Source: a virus (taxonomy: Duplodnaviria; Heunggongvirae; Uroviricota; Caudoviricetes). Taken from it: a stretch of 40,441 nucleotides of DNA. A program made the translations under genes and the position numbers. Every line of letters begins with the position of its first letter. Position 1 is the stretch's first letter. The notes under the pieces were generated by a model. The model was not told where the DNA came from. It saw only the letters and a program-made list of their open reading frames with translations, and did no database searches. The stretch lies in the IMG/VR virus record IMGVR_UViG_2531839530_000005, positions 1-40,441 of that record; one strand, 5' to 3'. This document shows positions 22,593-38,096 of this stretch, piece after piece.

Positions 22593-22943
22593 TTACTCCT
22601 TCGATCTACCAAATTTGTTACCGATTACTCGCATTGCAGCCCCACGAATAGCATCGACACCGATCAGCCCCACGCCACCACCAATGGCAACAGAAAGCGA
22701 TTTAGGCCATCCAACATACTCAAGAGCGGATGCAAAGGTCAGCGTCAGAGCGCCACATAGCAAAATCTCGAGCGTTTTTCGCTTCCAGCCACCACCACCG
22801 CCAAAATAGGCGATGCGCAACCCAGCCATAACGATCGACATAATCACTGCGCCCAGCGGTGTGTCTCCACGCCACCAACTTTGTAAGAGTTCCAGTAAGT
22901 CAGGCCAGGAATGAGGGACATTGTGCATTTTCATAAGCCTCAC
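22593..22943 (-). CDS. Holin with dual-start motif (MRLMKMH)
   Basis: TM segments; immediately upstream of endolysin; Met-Lys-Met dual start. Confidence 0.65.
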   Translation of the reverse strand: MRLMKMHNVPHSWPDLLELLQSWWRGDTPLGAVIMSIVMAGLRIAYFGGGGGWKRKTLEILLCGALTLTFASALEYVGWPKSLSVAIGGGVGLIGVDAIRGAAMRVIGNKFGRSKE

Positions 22944-23151
22944 CTCCGAAAGTTCGGATGGTGCTAAATGTAAGATTCAGGCTCTCTGGCTTGCTCACAA
23001 GAAGTCGAGGATGTTTCCGGAGCCTAACAACGAAAAAGCCCCGGGACATGCCAGGGCCAGATGGAGTACCAGATTAAGCTTCTGGCGGTATATCCTCGTG
23101 TTTGATATCGTTAAATCGCCAAAAGTAACCATATCAATTAAAGGAGTATAT

Positions 23152-23430
23152 ATGGCTAGTTTTACTGTCCGCGTTGAGCTTGTGGGTGCATCATCCGATG
23201 ACTACGCTCGCCTTCATGAGGCGATGGAATCCCGAAGATACTTTCGCGAAATTCAAGATGGAGCAGGAAACTGGTTTTATCTTCCAGACGCTGAGTACAC
23301 AGCCGAAAAAAACGCATCTGCTCGCGCAGTCCGAGAAGAAGTTGTAGCCATCGCTGGGACAATAAAAAAGAACCCTCGGGTGCTAGTCACTCAAGCGGCA
23401 GATCGCTCATGGCATTTAATCAAGAAGTGA
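23152..23430 (+). CDS. Hypothetical protein (93 aa)
   Basis: Strong SD AAGGAG before ATG at 23152; opposite strand to late operon. Confidence 0.4.
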   Translation: MASFTVRVELVGASSDDYARLHEAMESRRYFREIQDGAGNWFYLPDAEYTAEKNASARAVREEVVAIAGTIKKNPRVLVTQAADRSWHLIKK

Positions 23431-23646
23431 GTTTTGATCGCCATTAACGGGTATTCCGTTCCCGCTACGCCCCTCACCAACCTCAGGGGCGCTTTCATAG
23501 CGCTCCATCGCAATAAACGCGGCAGCGATGCAATGCCCCAAATTTTCAAAATCATCCACCCCCGGGTTAGCCCGAGCCACAATGAACTGACCCAGTGTGA
23601 TTTTGGCCTGAGATCGGGAATCAGAAGATAATTCATAAAATTTCAT
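23416..23646 (-). CDS. Hypothetical small protein (76 aa, MKFYELSSDS...)
   Basis: SD GGAGA before ATG; immediately after a terminator hairpin. Confidence 0.35.
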   Translation of the reverse strand: MKFYELSSDSRSQAKITLGQFIVARANPGVDDFENLGHCIAAAFIAMERYESAPEVGEGRSGNGIPVNGDQNSLLD

Positions 23647-23660
23647 GGGTGTTCTCCAGA

Positions 23661-23689
23661 AACAACAAAACCCGCTCAATGGCGGGTTC
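23661..23689 (-). terminator. Rho-independent terminator downstream of KilA-N gene
   Basis: Stem AACCCGC / GCGGGTT with loop TCAATG followed by TTTTGTTGTTT on minus strand. Confidence 0.45.
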
Positions 23690-23783
23690 TGGTAAAGTTC
23701 ATGCGCTTGGTTCGCCTCGCGATACAGCTTTGCGAAGCGTACCGGGATTGAAGCAGTTTATGTGCAAAAATGCAAGAACTTTT

Positions 23784-24359
23784 TTAAAGCTGCATCAACC
23801 TTTCCACCAGTTTATCTCTGCGAACAACAAACCAACCATTGGCTCTCGCCAGTTCCAGCCATGACTCAAGGGAAATAACAATATCATCATCCCGTAACTG
23901 AATTGTGGAAACAGTGACACCGCCTCTCTGATAACAGAGAACTCGCGTGTCGTAACTTTTCTGGCATGAAACTGGCGTTGACGGATCCTTTTGACTGAAA
24001 TAGCAGTCTTCCAGTTTTTCGAACACATCCCATGCCTGATCGGTTTCGAGCATTTTGGCGTGGCGTGCTGCGCCTCGTTCTGTCCAGAGGATGAGGGAGC
24101 GGGCTTTGGGTGAAACTGGATTTTGTGAGTAGTTTAAAGCGACCCGCAATTCTTTAAGGTCATTACCAACAACTTTGAAAAAGTGTTTCCCTTCAACGAA
24201 GCGTACTTTGTTCTCATGATGATTCTGGCGAATACGCACCGGCTCAGTGCCGTAAAGCTGCGCCAAAAGTTCGGTGGTAATAACAGGAATCTGGTTATGG
24301 GTGATCGGGGAGAGAGTTTCAACAGAGATTTGAGTGGTCATAACGATAACTCCGTACAT
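23784..24359 (-). CDS. KilA-N/ORF6N-domain protein (antirepressor-like moron)
   Basis: N-terminal ITTELLAQLYG...VRFVEGKHFFKV motif typical of ORF6N/KilA-N DNA-binding domains. Confidence 0.55.
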   Translation of the reverse strand: MYGVIVMTTQISVETLSPITHNQIPVITTELLAQLYGTEPVRIRQNHHENKVRFVEGKHFFKVVGNDLKELRVALNYSQNPVSPKARSLILWTERGAARHAKMLETDQAWDVFEKLEDCYFSQKDPSTPVSCQKSYDTRVLCYQRGGVTVSTIQLRDDDIVISLESWLELARANGWFVVRRDKLVERLMQL

Positions 24360-24503
24360 TTGGACATTATCGCCACCGTCAGGTGCTAATCATCGTGGTG
24401 GCGAACTGTGCGGGGTTAGCACTACCGGGTACGGAAACCGGCGAGCCTTTCGGCTCCCCCACACAGCCCGCCATAAATCGCGAATGTGACTGTGCAAACG
24501 ATA

Positions 24504-24527
24504 TGAAAAAAAGACGCGGGCGCGTCT
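24504..24527 (-). terminator. tR'-like terminator downstream of Q-like gene
   Basis: Palindrome AGACGCG-GG-CGCGTCT followed by T7 on minus strand, about 60 nt past the predicted promoter. Confidence 0.55.
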
Positions 24528-24589
24528 CATATCGCTCCGTAAACATCCGGGGTGCTAATCCCGACGCCAGATTTTGCTGGCGCGTGAGG

Positions 24590-24619
24590 AATATAGCCCC
24601 GGATAACAGATTGAGTCAA
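24590..24619 (-). promoter_or_regulatory. pR'-like late promoter (-35 TTGACT, 18-nt spacer, -10 TATATT)
   Basis: Read on minus strand; -35 overlaps the Q-like stop codon. Confidence 0.4.
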
Positions 24620-25038
24620 CAGACGGTTTTTAGATCCCCGGAAGAGAATGCATCACGCATCGGTAGATAGAGCATATATTCAGCAAGATTTAGCCATACA
24701 TCTACCCGACTGCAGCACGTCCGGAAACACCACTCGGGGTGTGCATCATTCAACAGTTCAGCCATTTTGCGCTTGGTCATCCCCCTCCCTTCATAGCGTT
24801 GCCGGAGAATGCAAATCAATCCTGGATGCTCTGCCAGCACCTCACTTATGACTCGATCAATACATAACGCCTCTGCATCAGTACAATGCGCCAGCCAGCT
24901 CTTTTGCTTGCCGTTGATCATCTCTCTCAAAAACGCTTCCAGCTCAGCTTTCTCTATTCCCGCTTTTTTCATTCTGCGCAGGGCTTCATTGATGGCTGTT
25001 TTCGTCAATTTTTTGGATGCCAACAACTGATTGAACAT
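24616..25038 (-). CDS. Putative late-gene antiterminator (Q-like)
   Basis: Position upstream of promoter/terminator unit and lysis genes; HTH-like C-terminus; start chosen at Met with AGGA RBS. Confidence 0.45.
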   Translation of the reverse strand: MFNQLLASKKLTKTAINEALRRMKKAGIEKAELEAFLREMINGKQKSWLAHCTDAEALCIDRVISEVLAEHPGLICILRQRYEGRGMTKRKMAELLNDAHPEWCFRTCCSRVDVWLNLAEYMLYLPMRDAFSSGDLKTVC

Positions 25039-25166
25039 ATTTCCTGACCTGCCACCGCCAATATACGACCAGCGCCCCCACATACGCAGTTTGCCCCGAA
25101 TCCAGACACTTTCCAGCGTGGTGAGACGAAGGTGTTCTCCGCTTTTTCCTGTATTCGTTGGGTAAA

Positions 25167-25457
25167 TCACAAATATCCCTCCTTTCTCCAGATTTCTTGT
25201 GTGCGAAAAACACCTTCTGCATGCATCAGGCGTAATTCTTCTTTGGTGTAATCGCTGGTTTTTACCCGCCCGTCGATTAAATCGTGGCATGAGCTACAGG
25301 CAATCGCTGCCTGCATATCGTGTGGTTTTGTCGCTGTTCCGCACGTCCCCGCCAGCCTGTAATGCGCCAGCACAGACGTTTCGGGATTGTGATTGCAGTA
25401 GCCAGGGATTCTGACCTGGCACATCTGGCCCCGCGCCGCTTTACGTAAATCCACCAT
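25167..25457 (-). CDS. Cys-rich nin-region protein (DUF1364/YbcO-like)
   Basis: Cys cluster CQVRIPGYCNH...CSSCHDLIDGR. Confidence 0.5.
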   Translation of the reverse strand: MVDLRKAARGQMCQVRIPGYCNHNPETSVLAHYRLAGTCGTATKPHDMQAAIACSSCHDLIDGRVKTSDYTKEELRLMHAEGVFRTQEIWRKEGYL

Positions 25458-26615: not shown

Positions 26616-26771
26616 TTACTCCTCAGATTCGTAAGCTGTGAAGACAGCAACCTCCGTCTGGCCGGTACGGATTCGTACCTCGCAGAGGTCTTTCCTCGTT
26701 ACCAGTGCCGTCACTATGACGGTTAAACAGATGACGATCAGGGCGATTAACATCGCCTTTTGCTGCTTCAT
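26616..26771 (-). CDS. hok: Hok/Gef-family type I toxin (51 aa)
   Basis: Translation MKQQKAMLIALIVICLTVIVTALVTRKDLCEVRIRTGQTEVAVFTAYESEE; not in the >=60-aa ORF track. Confidence 0.85.
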   Translation of the reverse strand: MKQQKAMLIALIVICLTVIVTALVTRKDLCEVRIRTGQTEVAVFTAYESEE

Positions 26772-26981
26772 AGCCTGCTTCTCCTTGACCTTTCGGTCCG
26801 TAAGAGGCTAATCTCTATGTGTCGCATAGATATGGCCTCAGATTAATGTTAAGCGTCTTGCAGGACGCGTAATGTTAACTGGGGCTTTTCTCTATCTGCC
26901 GTTGGTGTTCATGCCCGAGGCAGATAGCCTCAAGCACCCGCAGCAATTCTACTTAACTCCCGTCACCTCGCCAATATGAAA

Positions 26982-33173: not shown

Positions 33174-33568
33174 CGGAATACCTTATTACTGGTTGTGTGA
33201 GAACTCCAGTATACCACCGAGCCTGAAGTGGTAAAAAGACAGGCGCACAACACGAAGGCGCATTTCCGGTATTCATAAAGAGTCGGTCTTGTCTGTTAAA
33301 TTTAAATGGTGGGAGTGCGCCTCCGGTTGTAAATAACGACATTGCTATGTGTAGTCTTTGGCGGCATCAGTTCTACTCCGTGGCTGCCCTGTCGCCCCTT
33401 TTTAAAGTGAATTTTGTGATGCGGTGAATGCGGCTAAGCGCACGCGGCACAGTTAAAAGCATCAGTGTTATGGGTGGATTATCCGGCGTTAATTGTTAAC
33501 TGGTTAACGTCACCTGGAGGCACCAGGCACCGCATCGACAAAATTCATTTGTAAAAATGGAGATAATT

Positions 33569-37901: not shown

Positions 37902-38096
37902 ATGAGATATGACGATGTTAAACCATGTCCGTTTTGTGGTTGTCCATCTGTTACGGTGAAAGCAATTTCAGGATATTACCGGGCAAAATGCAACGGATGC
38001 GAATCCCGAACTGGCTATGGTGGAAGTGAAAAAGAAGCACTCGAAAGATGGAATAAACGAACTACTGGAAATAATAATGGAGGTGTTCATGTATAA
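37902..38096 (+). CDS. ralR: RalR/Lar restriction-alleviation protein
   Basis: MRYDDVKPCPFCGCPSVTVKAISGYYRAKCNGCESRTGYGG... recalled as matching Rac RalR. Confidence 0.8.
   Translation: MRYDDVKPCPFCGCPSVTVKAISGYYRAKCNGCESRTGYGGSEKEALERWNKRTTGNNNGGVHV

What the first reader, a model, noticed from the sequence alone, without database searches (positions are those of the whole stretch)
23152..23689. Convergent pair of small genes between holin and the KilA-N gene
A 93-aa plus-strand ORF with a strong SD and a 76-aa minus-strand ORF overlap at their 3' ends (23416-23430) and sit between two terminators. Neither matches anything I recognise. Convergent overlapping small genes in a moron slot could be an antisense-regulated toxin/immunity or exclusion pair.
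Basis: inference. Interest (0 to 1): 0.5.

Follow-up and report, generated by a model that had tools for sequence, protein, structure and literature searches.

The report
Convergent GhoS-like gene pair in prophage
Two small genes that face each other and overlap at their ends, in an E. coli prophage, are a real cassette that recurs in many enterobacterial prophages (E. coli K-12's uncharacterised ymfI-ymfJ has the same layout); one protein has the fold of the RNA-cutting antitoxin GhoS, and what the pair does has never been tested.

Summary
ORF A (23152-23430, +, 92 aa) and ORF B (23416-23646, -, 76 aa) overlap by 15 nt between two minus-strand terminator-like hairpins, in the Q-to-holin slot of a Rac-like lambdoid prophage. 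Both are real genes: PGAP annotates them, and dN/dS is 0.10 for A and 0.16-0.35 for B.

A is not an orphan. It is a distant YmfI-family protein with a confident ferredoxin-like model, and its best solved match is GhoS, followed by Cas2 proteins. B is an acidic two-helix hairpin with a disordered tail, from a very small family with no known relative.

The main finding is the architecture:
- 50 of 60 distinct A homologues in viral contigs have a small convergent ORF ending at A's stop, against 18% of control ORFs.
- The partners fall into at least three unrelated families, including YmfJ.
- The partner always runs with the phage's lytic operon and A runs against it.
- A carries a conserved extended -10-like motif. 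B has no promoter and sits 20 nt behind a terminator.

My best reading is an RNase-fold protein made in the lysogen and shut off during lytic growth, by head-on transcription and possibly by the partner protein. A toxin/immunity or exclusion role is plausible but unproven. Interest is moderate.

The parts
23152..23430 (+). ORF A: 92-aa YmfI-family protein with a GhoS/Cas2-like ferredoxin fold
   Evidence: - ORF and AGGAG Shine-Dalgarno.
- PGAP protein WP_001519807.1.
- phrog_8894, E = 3e-38.
- NCBIfam YmfI_phage at 59 bits, E = 4.8e-16, below the 140-bit cutoff.
- hhalign to K-12 YmfI, 94%.
- AlphaFold2 model with pLDDT 94.8.
- Best PDB match is GhoS 2LLZ (E = 3.8e-4, TM 0.68), followed by Cas2 proteins.
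- dN/dS 0.10 against the Klebsiella aerogenes copy.
23416..23646 (-). ORF B: 76-aa acidic protein, a two-helix hairpin (residues 8-25 and 33-49) with a disordered Gly/Asp-rich tail; conserved motif AAAFIAMERxDSAP
   Evidence: - ORF.
- PGAP protein WP_000675202.1.
- phrog_26625, E = 4.8e-49.
- No match in Pfam, NCBIfam, PADLOC or PDB.
- Only 32 clusters among 1.84 billion representative proteins.
- Structure model.
- pI 4.6 and dN/dS 0.16-0.35.
23416..23430 (.). 15-nt overlap of the 3' ends of the two coding sequences
   Evidence: The overlap is read directly from the sequence. In related loci the overlap is 4-30 nt, most often 4 nt.
23103..23111 (+). Candidate extended -10 promoter element for A (TGATATCGT), 49 nt upstream of the ATG
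   Evidence: The motif TGnTAnnnT occurs at -39 to -51 from the ATG in 40 of 59 distinct A loci, against about 4% of random windows of the same size. It is also present upstream of e14 ymfI (TGGTATGCT). Promoter function is inferred, and the two-hexamer promoter scan did not call it.
23142..23146 (+). Shine-Dalgarno sequence of A (AGGAG)
   Evidence: Read from the sequence. In the fold of 23060-23170 it pairs with 23087-23097 (z = -2.27), but that upstream segment may lie before the transcription start.
23656..23691 (-). Terminator-like hairpin plus T-tract about 20 nt upstream of B's start codon; there is no room for a promoter between it and B
   Evidence: Found by the scan. The same hairpin sits upstream of B in the Klebsiella aerogenes and Kluyvera copies. 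A 45-nt segment containing it is found in 586 of 5426 complete E. coli genomes.
23027..23058 (-). Second minus-strand terminator-like hairpin plus T-tract, downstream of the antisense of A and upstream of the holin
   Evidence: Found by the scan. The flank is conserved in related phages.

Best explanation
The locus is a two-gene accessory cassette of lambdoid prophages. It has the same architecture as e14 ymfI-ymfJ.

Shown:
- A is a small protein with a ferredoxin-like fold closest to the endoribonuclease GhoS and to Cas2.
- A lies against the direction of the phage's lytic transcription and carries a conserved extended -10-like motif.
- B is a small acidic helical protein that lies in the direction of the late operon. 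It has no promoter and sits directly behind a terminator.
- The two coding sequences overlap at their 3' ends, and this geometry is conserved across many prophages with interchangeable partner families.

Inferred mechanism:
- In the lysogen, host RNA polymerase transcribes A. Having no terminator, the A transcript runs antisense across B.
- A acts on RNA. It either excludes incoming phage or destroys leaky lytic transcripts just upstream of the lysis genes.
- After induction, Q-modified polymerase reads through both terminators. It makes B and, by head-on collision and antisense pairing, silences A.
- B protein probably also neutralises the A protein already present.

The pair would thus be an RNase-and-antidote module that is on in lysogeny and off in lytic growth.
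For: Fold and family of A:
-.
- A GhoS-fold RNase becomes a toxin with only two substitutions (PMC4010927).
- A low-confidence alignment places the key GhoS residue R28 opposite the invariant H22 of the A family, and the acidic residue at the end of strand 1 opposite the near-invariant E9.

Conserved geometry:
- 50 of 60 distinct A loci against 18% of controls.
- The same arrangement occurs in e14, Cronobacter phage phiES15 and Aeromonas phage pAEv1818, and in Klebsiella, Kluyvera and Serratia.
- Every further B-family gene I looked up has a convergent A-family gene with a 4-nt overlap directly after Q.

Orientation and expression signals:
- In 39 of 55 loci where both flanks could be judged, both flanking large ORFs are on the partner's strand.
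- Promoter-like motif for A.
- Terminator directly upstream of B, and no plus-strand terminator.
- In e14, ymfJ is strongly induced late in the SOS response and ymfI much less (PMC11002266). ymfJ follows a consensus promoter with repeated operator-like sites. Both transcripts overlap in at least half of 58 MG1655 transcriptomes (PMC12288877).

Distribution: within complete E. coli genomes, A is never found without B (18 of 18), while B occurs alone in 5. That is the pattern expected if B is the harmless component.
Against: - No activity, toxicity, interaction or transcript has been measured for this locus.
- A does not reach the curated cutoff of either YmfI_phage or Pfam GhoS.
- GhoS itself is not toxic.
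- The partner families are unrelated (hhalign probability below 1%) and are swapped between A proteins as close as 71% identical. That is hard to reconcile with a specific protein-protein fit.
- About one in six A homologues in phage contigs has no partner, and A homologues in Alphaproteobacteria, Acidobacteria and other phyla have different neighbours.
- There is no PADLOC match.
- The promoter is a motif match only, and the same upstream block occurs in E. coli prophages that lack A.
Confidence: 0.35

Rival explanations
1. Type V-like guard, with the roles reversed. The partner, or the lytic genes downstream of it (holin and endolysin here; kil, gam, xis and int in e14-type phages), is the harmful component. 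A is an antitoxin-like RNase that cleaves those transcripts in the lysogen, as GhoS cleaves ghoT mRNA. Induction swamps and silences A.
For: - A's closest solved structure is the type V antitoxin GhoS, and NCBI names relatives as GhoS or DUF2622.
- The partner is always the first gene of a lytic operon, directly after a promoter or terminator, where leaky read-through would matter.
- The cassette sits immediately upstream of lysis or kil genes.
- Partner families can be swapped, which is easier if A recognises RNA rather than a protein surface.
Against: - B and the other partners are acidic, soluble, helical proteins and not GhoT-like membrane peptides.
- B occurs without A in 5 E. coli genomes and in L102 without evident harm.
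- No conserved RNA target has been identified.
- The genes are convergent, not in one operon as in ghoST.
Confidence: 0.2
2. The two genes are independent neighbours. A is a solitary antisense moron that tends to recombine in at the 3' end of whichever small gene opens a lytic operon. The overlap and the shared short tails would then be by-products of phage genome compaction and mosaic recombination, with no functional link between the proteins.
For: - Partner families are unrelated and are exchanged between close A proteins.
- The break point of the B-only variant lies exactly at A's stop codon.
- Only 15-35 nt downstream of A's stop travels with A.
- Both genes occur alone in some genomes.
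Against: - The B family is tiny and is almost always next to an A-family gene, including a very divergent YmfI-like A' in Enterobacter and Kluyvera ascorbata.
- 83% against 18% for the convergent overlap.
- Partners are uniformly small (45-95 aa).
- The geometry holds in two different genome positions: the Q-to-holin slot and the repressor-proximal early operon.
Confidence: 0.2
3. One of the two ORFs is not a gene. It would be a shadow ORF or annotation artefact, with the real downstream partner of A being the plus-strand ORF 23434-23631.
For: - Small ORFs are often spurious.
- The plus-strand frame antisense to B is open for 65 codons.
- One database protein is a read-through fusion of A with that frame (P0002).
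Against: - dN/dS is well below 1 for both A and B at moderate divergence.
- Both have multi-genus families with conserved motifs.
- The plus-strand frame opposite the partner is interrupted in Klebsiella aerogenes and in most other loci.
Confidence: 0.03

Closest known systems
e14 prophage ymfI-ymfJ of E. coli K-12 (b1143/b1144), both uncharacterised
   Same: - YmfI is a detectable homologue of A (hhalign 94%; NCBIfam E = 4.8e-16).
- ymfI and ymfJ are convergent and overlap at their 3' ends, by 63 nt.
- ymfJ runs with the lytic early-left operon and ymfI runs against it.
- An extended -10-like motif lies upstream of ymfI.
- YmfJ-like proteins are partners of A homologues in 9 of the distinct phage loci.
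   Different: - A scores far below the curated YmfI cutoff (59 against 140 bits).
- B is unrelated to YmfJ (hhalign 0.1%).
- The window's cassette lies between Q and the holin, not next to the repressor.
- K-12 YmfI lacks the residues R7, E9 and H22 that are invariant or near-invariant in the A family.
GhoS/GhoT type V toxin-antitoxin system (GhoS, PDB 2LLZ, Pfam PF11080)
   Same: - The fold is the same. GhoS is the best solved match to the A model.
- 11 of 19 A-family members hit Pfam GhoS weakly.
- Both are small, stand-alone proteins paired with a second small gene.
   Different: - A's partner is a soluble acidic protein, not a membrane peptide.
- The genes are convergent, not in one operon.
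- The window protein itself has no Pfam GhoS hit.
- RNase activity is untested.
Cas2 / VapD RNase-fold proteins, including the VapD-VapX toxin-antitoxin pair (from my own knowledge, not tested here)
   Same: - Ferredoxin-like fold, with Cas2 structures at TM 0.5-0.55.
- VapD is a Cas2-fold toxin neutralised by a small protein. That is the logic I propose for A and B.
   Different: - No cas genes or CRISPR array appear in the annotated prophage.
- VapD was not among the top 50 structural matches.
- As I recall it, vapX-vapD is a co-directional operon.
Excludons and convergent type I toxin-antitoxin loci with 3' overlap (for example prophage txpA/RatA of Bacillus subtilis; from my own knowledge)
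   Same: Convergent transcription units overlap at their 3' ends, so expression of one opposes the other. ymfI-ymfJ is listed in the MG1655 core set of overlapping convergent transcripts.
   Different: Both partners here encode conserved proteins, so neither is a non-coding antitoxin RNA.

Membership tests
YmfI family phage protein (NCBIfam NF051477) | Full-length match to the family profile above the curated cutoff (140 bits) | tested here: not met
   The match is 59 bits (E = 4.8e-16) and covers residues 1-89 of the protein and positions 1-88 of the 89-position profile. A is homologous but outside the equivalog.
YmfI family phage protein (NCBIfam NF051477) | Detectable homology to E. coli K-12 YmfI itself | tested here: met
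   hhalign of the A-family alignment against YmfI gives probability 94% (E = 9e-8) over 81 columns.
YmfI family phage protein (NCBIfam NF051477) | Genomic setting as in e14: a convergent small gene overlapping the 3' end, inside a prophage | tested here: met
   The setting recurs in 50 of 60 distinct loci.
GhoS (Pfam PF11080, type V antitoxin) | Sequence match to the Pfam GhoS profile | tested here: not met
   The window protein has no hit at E <= 1. Eleven of 19 relatives hit weakly, best E = 8.7e-5. A profile search of PDB sequences did not recover 2LLZ.
GhoS (Pfam PF11080, type V antitoxin) | GhoS-like ferredoxin fold | tested here: met
   The model has pLDDT 94.8. Its top Foldseek match in the PDB is 2LLZ, with E = 3.8e-4, TM 0.68 and rmsd 2.7 over 81 columns.
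GhoS (Pfam PF11080, type V antitoxin) | Co-transcribed downstream GhoT-like small hydrophobic membrane toxin | tested here: not met
   B is convergent, acidic (pI 4.6) and hydrophilic (GRAVY -0.29), and is predicted to be a soluble helical hairpin. The plus-strand ORF downstream of A is not conserved.
GhoS (Pfam PF11080, type V antitoxin) | Sequence-specific endoribonuclease activity on the partner's mRNA | not testable with these tools
   This needs in vitro cleavage assays or in vivo RNA end mapping.
Cas2 (CRISPR adaptation) | Encoded next to cas1 and a CRISPR array | tested here: not met
   No cas gene appears among the 64 annotated features of the identical 40-kb region. The structural similarity is only moderate (TM 0.5-0.55).
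Known anti-phage defence systems (PADLOC-DB v2) | Match of either protein to a defence-system profile | tested here: not met
   No family matched A or B at E <= 1.
Excludon / antisense-coupled convergent pair | Overlapping convergent transcription units | tested here: inconclusive
   The coding sequences overlap by 15 nt and no plus-strand terminator follows A, so the transcripts must overlap if both genes are transcribed. No transcript data exist for this locus. For ymfI-ymfJ the overlap is reported in at least half of 58 transcriptomes.

The most novel reading that the evidence does not exclude
The YmfI/GhoS-fold protein and its interchangeable small acidic partners form a previously unrecognised class of two-protein, convergently overlapping toxin-antidote or exclusion modules in enterobacterial temperate phages, including e14 ymfI-ymfJ in K-12. 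In this reading an RNA-cleaving effector is armed in the lysogen. It is disarmed on induction both by head-on lytic transcription and by a partner protein whose short C-terminal tail is encoded in the effector's own 3' flank.
Probability: 0.22. Interest if true: 0.7.

Novelty: new variant of a known kind. Interest (0 to 1): 0.52.

Why it matters
If the reading is right, it gives a function and a regulatory logic to a recurrent, unnamed prophage cassette. Two E. coli K-12 genes have sat uncharacterised for decades (ymfI and ymfJ), so the idea can be tested at once in the best-equipped model organism.

It would also extend the GhoS/Cas2 RNase fold from a single chromosomal type V toxin-antitoxin system to a phage-borne family with a different partner type and a different control principle: convergent overlap that toggles between lysogeny and lytic growth. 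And it would add an RNA-targeting candidate to the accessory genes that lambdoid prophages keep between Q and the lysis genes, the slot where Shiga toxin genes sit in Stx phages (PMC8065619 abstract).

If the rival reading of independent neighbours is right, the finding is an ordinary pair of small phage genes.

Tried and rejected
Searches on B that found nothing:
- Pfam, NCBIfam and PADLOC gave nothing credible.
- A profile search of PDB sequences returned only a chance MotA match.
- Foldseek of the B model against the PDB found nothing.
- tblastn against 50,697 phage genomes found nothing.

Searches on A that added nothing:
- Foldseek against BFVD viral models gave no annotated match.
- A profile search of PDB sequences did not reach GhoS.

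Partner families:
- hhalign between the three main partner families, to test whether they are one fast-evolving family, gave probabilities below 1%.
- B against YmfJ gave 0.1%.
- PHROGs and Pfam on representatives of all partner classes returned only 'unknown function'.

RNA elements:
- Rfam found nothing in 22900-23800 apart from a sub-threshold STnc370 match, and nothing in the leaders of related loci.
- RNAalifold on the two leader alignments predicted only the first hairpin.
- Single-sequence folds of eight leaders mostly scored no better than shuffles.
- The long anti-Shine-Dalgarno helix in the window's leader probably lies upstream of the transcription start, so I do not rely on it.

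Promoters: the two-hexamer promoter scan found no promoter for either gene.

Rejected idea: the plus-strand ORF 23434-23631 as a co-directional GhoT-like partner of A. It is not conserved and is not hydrophobic.

Literature:
- No paper in the library contains 'DUF2622'.
- Searches for ymfI/ymfJ returned only data-table listings of the genes, with no functional study.
- Searches on GhoS/Cas2 with phage defence and convergent genes, and on convergent antisense morons, found nothing on such a pair.
- The original GhoS paper is not held in the library.

Full report
**Context.** The window is 100% identical, over the 601-nt query taken from this region, to a Rac-like lambdoid prophage of E. coli strain 300709, which lies between the chromosomal genes pphA and yebY. 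Its lytic genes run on the minus strand in this order:
- a Q-like DUF1133 antiterminator (about 24616-25170);
- an isrK / c4-a1b1 / C4 RNA block (24394-24596);
- an ORF6N-domain, anti-repressor-like gene (23784-24359);
- the region of the finding;
- a lambda-family holin (22593-22943), then the endolysin and Rz.

The finding therefore sits in the Q-to-holin accessory slot. Related E. coli phages share both flanks but carry other cargo there.

**Observation.** ORF A is 23152-23430 (+) and is 92 aa, not 93. AGGAG lies 5 nt upstream of its ATG. ORF B is 23646-23416 (-) and is 76 aa. The coding sequences overlap by 15 nt. Two terminator-like hairpins bracket the pair, at 23691..23666 and 23058..23037. 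Both are on the minus strand, and no plus-strand terminator-like site was found between 22500 and 24600. PGAP annotates both ORFs as hypothetical proteins. The complete cassette is present in 18 of 5426 complete E. coli genomes at 97.7-100% identity. Five further genomes have only B, with the break point at window position 23432, directly after A's stop codon. In those genomes B has a different, longer C-terminus and is followed by a co-directional predicted membrane protein.

**Are they genes?** Both have homologues in several genera.
- Against the Klebsiella aerogenes copy, dN/dS is 0.10 for A and 0.35 for B.
- Against Enterobacter-type copies, dN/dS for B is 0.16-0.22.
- The plus-strand frame antisense to B (23434-23631) is open in E. 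coli, but it is interrupted in K. aerogenes and in most other loci, so it is a shadow ORF.

**ORF A.** The evidence from sequence and structure is as follows:
- It matches phrog_8894 (E = 3e-38).
- It matches NCBIfam 'YmfI family phage protein' over its full length with E = 4.8e-16, but at 59 bits against a 140-bit cutoff.
- A 19-member alignment (A1) aligns to K-12 YmfI with 94% probability.
- The AlphaFold2 model is confident (pLDDT 94.8) and has a ferredoxin-like strand-helix order.
- Its best match among solved structures is GhoS, the type V antitoxin endoribonuclease (2LLZ, E = 3.8e-4, TM 0.68). Several Cas2 proteins follow.
- Eleven of 19 family members give weak Pfam GhoS hits, and NCBI names two relatives GhoS and DUF2622.
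- The invariant or near-invariant polar residues are R7, E9, D17, Y18, H22, E48, Y49, T80 and R85.

A low-confidence alignment puts H22 opposite GhoS R28. That residue is reported as the most important one for GhoS activity (PMC4010927). The same paper shows that two substitutions turn GhoS into a growth-inhibiting RNase, so the fold sits close to the line between harmless and toxic.

**ORF B.** B has no Pfam, NCBIfam, PADLOC or PDB relative. An exhaustive profile search of 1.84 billion representative proteins found only 32 clusters. These share a roughly 55-residue N-terminal domain (MKFxEL ... AAAFIAMERxDSAPD) and have variable tails. The model shows two helices (residues 8-25 and 33-49) and a disordered tail. 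The protein is acidic, with pI 4.6. The overlap with A falls in the variable tail.

**The conserved architecture.** In E. coli K-12, ymfI (+) and ymfJ (-) are also convergent and overlap by 63 nt. The A homologues of K. aerogenes, Serratia and Kluyvera each have a small convergent gene overlapping their stop codon. I then examined 79 viral-contig loci that encode A relatives.
- 50 of 60 distinct A proteins have a convergent ORF of at least 40 aa ending between -36 and +10 nt of A's stop. The figure for control ORFs in the same loci is 145 of 817 (Fisher p = 1e-25).
- The overlap is most often 4 nt.
- The partners cluster into the B family (20), a second family with the motif EEGISF (14), a YmfJ-like family (9) and a few minor types. 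The three main families are not detectably related, and none has a known function.
- Partner type is only loosely tied to the A phylogeny. A proteins that are 71% identical can have unrelated partners.
- In the other direction, B proteins 82% identical to the window's are paired with a very different, YmfI-like A'.
- Every additional B-family gene I looked up (Enterobacter ludwigii, Citrobacter amalonaticus, Kluyvera ascorbata) is followed by a convergent A-family gene with a 4-nt overlap, directly after a Q gene.
- Only the first 15-35 nt beyond A's stop are shared between cassettes with different partners, so unrelated partners of one A clade end in the same few residues.

**Range of the pairing.** The pairing appears confined to Enterobacterales and their neighbours. 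The Xenorhabdus, Kluyvera, Silvania and Symbiopectobacterium genomes keep it. A homologues in Alphaproteobacteria, Acidobacteria and other phyla have other neighbours.

**Orientation and expression signals.**
- In 39 of 55 loci where both flanks could be judged, the flanking large ORFs on both sides are on the partner's strand. A is thus a lone gene set against a one-directional operon.
- The partner is the first gene after a lytic control point. In the window it starts 20 nt after a terminator hairpin that is conserved in K. aerogenes and Kluyvera.
- In e14 it follows a consensus promoter (TTGACA, 17 nt, ATAATG) with repeated TGTACC sites, just beyond the repressor gene's terminator.
- In Cronobacter phage phiES15 and Aeromonas phage pAEv1818 the order is repressor, YmfJ-like gene, convergent A, then the remaining early-left genes, which in phiES15 are kil and gam.
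- A carries a conserved extended -10-like motif, TGnTAnnnT, at -39 to -51 from its ATG in 40 of 59 loci, against about 4% of random windows. In the window it is TGATATCGT at 23103-23111.

Published transcript data exist only for e14. ymfJ is strongly induced late in the SOS response and ymfI much less (PMC11002266). ymfI-ymfJ belongs to the set of convergent pairs with overlapping transcripts in at least half of 58 MG1655 transcriptomes (PMC12288877).

**Interpretation.** These points are shown: two real genes, a GhoS/Cas2-like fold for A, a recurrent convergent overlap with interchangeable small partners, and opposite orientation relative to the lytic operon.

These steps are inferred:
- A is expressed in the lysogen from its own promoter, and its unterminated transcript is antisense to B.
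- B is made only when antiterminated (or, in e14-type phages, derepressed) lytic transcription arrives.
- That same transcription silences A.
- A acts on RNA.
- B may also neutralise A protein.

I give this lysogeny-on, lytic-off RNase-and-antidote reading a confidence of about 0.35. There are two serious rivals, each at about 0.2. The first reverses the roles: A, like GhoS, is a guard that cleaves leaky lytic transcripts. The second treats A and its partners as independent neighbours brought together by mosaic recombination. The swapping of unrelated partners argues against a tight protein-protein fit. The near-exclusive association of the tiny B family with A-family genes, and the constancy of the geometry in two different genome positions, argue against coincidence.

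**Comparison with known systems.** The closest relative is the uncharacterised e14 ymfI-ymfJ pair.
- Membership of the curated YmfI equivalog and of Pfam GhoS was tested and not met at the sequence level, although homology to YmfI and the fold match to GhoS are met.
- The defining GhoT-like partner is absent.
- No defence-system profile matches.
- I found no paper that describes this cassette.

I therefore class it as a new variant of a known kind: the GhoS/Cas2-fold small RNase family, with a new partner type and a new control geometry. Interest is moderate, and the function remains to be tested.

Noticed in passing
window 24394-24596 (-): Rfam places isrK (24507-24583), the c4-a1b1 target element (24544-24596) and a C4 antisense RNA (24394-24478) between the Q-like gene and the ORF6N anti-repressor-like gene. 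That layout resembles the phage P1 immI region (c4 RNA controlling ant) and sits at the head of a lambdoid late operon.
   Followed up: no
window 23656-23700: A 45-nt segment holding the terminator hairpin upstream of B is present at 100% identity in 586 of 5426 complete E. coli genomes, including O157:H7 strains. Only 23 of those genomes carry B. It is therefore a common backbone element of lambdoid late regions, independent of the cassette.
   Followed up: partly
L021-L088 (alignment A5), about 105 nt upstream of A homologues: Many A homologues have a conserved leader with a direct repeat, TTCCACAGTCAA. One copy overlaps the -35 region and the other lies in the 5' UTR inside a hairpin whose 3' arm is the Shine-Dalgarno sequence. 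Further upstream are two overlapping inverted repeats that co-vary. With my four helices, 78.5% of cells pair, against 72.1% in shuffles (0 of 500 shuffles reached it), and the covariation score is 0.192 against 0.111. This could be an operator, a translational control hairpin, or both. The window's own leader is of a different type.
   Followed up: partly
L005 3420-3497 (e14) and alignment A4: A second leader type, shared by e14 ymfI and 11 other loci, has a hairpin ending at the Shine-Dalgarno sequence. Its stem sequence differs between loci while staying complementary (CTTGGT/ACCAAG, GCTGG/CCAGC, CCTCTT/AAGAGG, CCTTGC/GCAAGG), and its loop contains CCACA. I judged this by eye only, because the alignment register shifts between loci.
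   Followed up: partly
L002 2317-3215 and L003, L098: In five E. coli genomes A is replaced by a co-directional 189-209-aa predicted membrane protein, and B has a different 90-aa form with a new C-terminus. The exchange point is the nucleotide after A's stop codon.
   Followed up: partly
L006 4687-6021 (Klebsiella aerogenes prophage): In the same Q-to-holin slot, next to the A/B cassette, lies a 444-aa KAP-family P-loop NTPase gene that is also oriented against the late operon. This is a second antisense accessory gene, of a kind often linked with defence.
   Followed up: no
L116 2001-2255 (Cronobacter phage phiES15, NC_018454 6014-6268): The A homologue of this UV-inducible phage is not annotated in the RefSeq record. 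Its convergent YmfJ-like partner (gp10) is annotated.
   Followed up: no
L107 and L109 (Allosphingosinicella, Sphingobium), 1220-2803: In sphingomonads, distant A homologues lie directly downstream of, and co-directional with, a roughly 415-aa ORF with no convergent small gene. In an Acidobacteria contig (L110), A overlaps the start of a co-directional 371-aa protein. I did not run these larger neighbours through any family library, so their functions are unknown. The family evidently has other partnerships outside enterobacterial phages.
   Followed up: no
window 26769-26939, 33346-33397, 38095-38273, 39835-39979: The window also contains other known RNA elements: sok (next to hokD), DicF, RalA (next to ralR) and, in the chromosomal flank, SraC/RyeA with SdsR/RyeB. 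The prophage therefore already carries two classical type I toxin-antitoxin loci.
   Followed up: no
protein P0002 (159 aa, E. coli): One database protein is A fused to the plus-strand frame antisense to B. The stop codon is replaced by Trp (TGA to TGG), which is a natural read-through variant of A.
   Followed up: no
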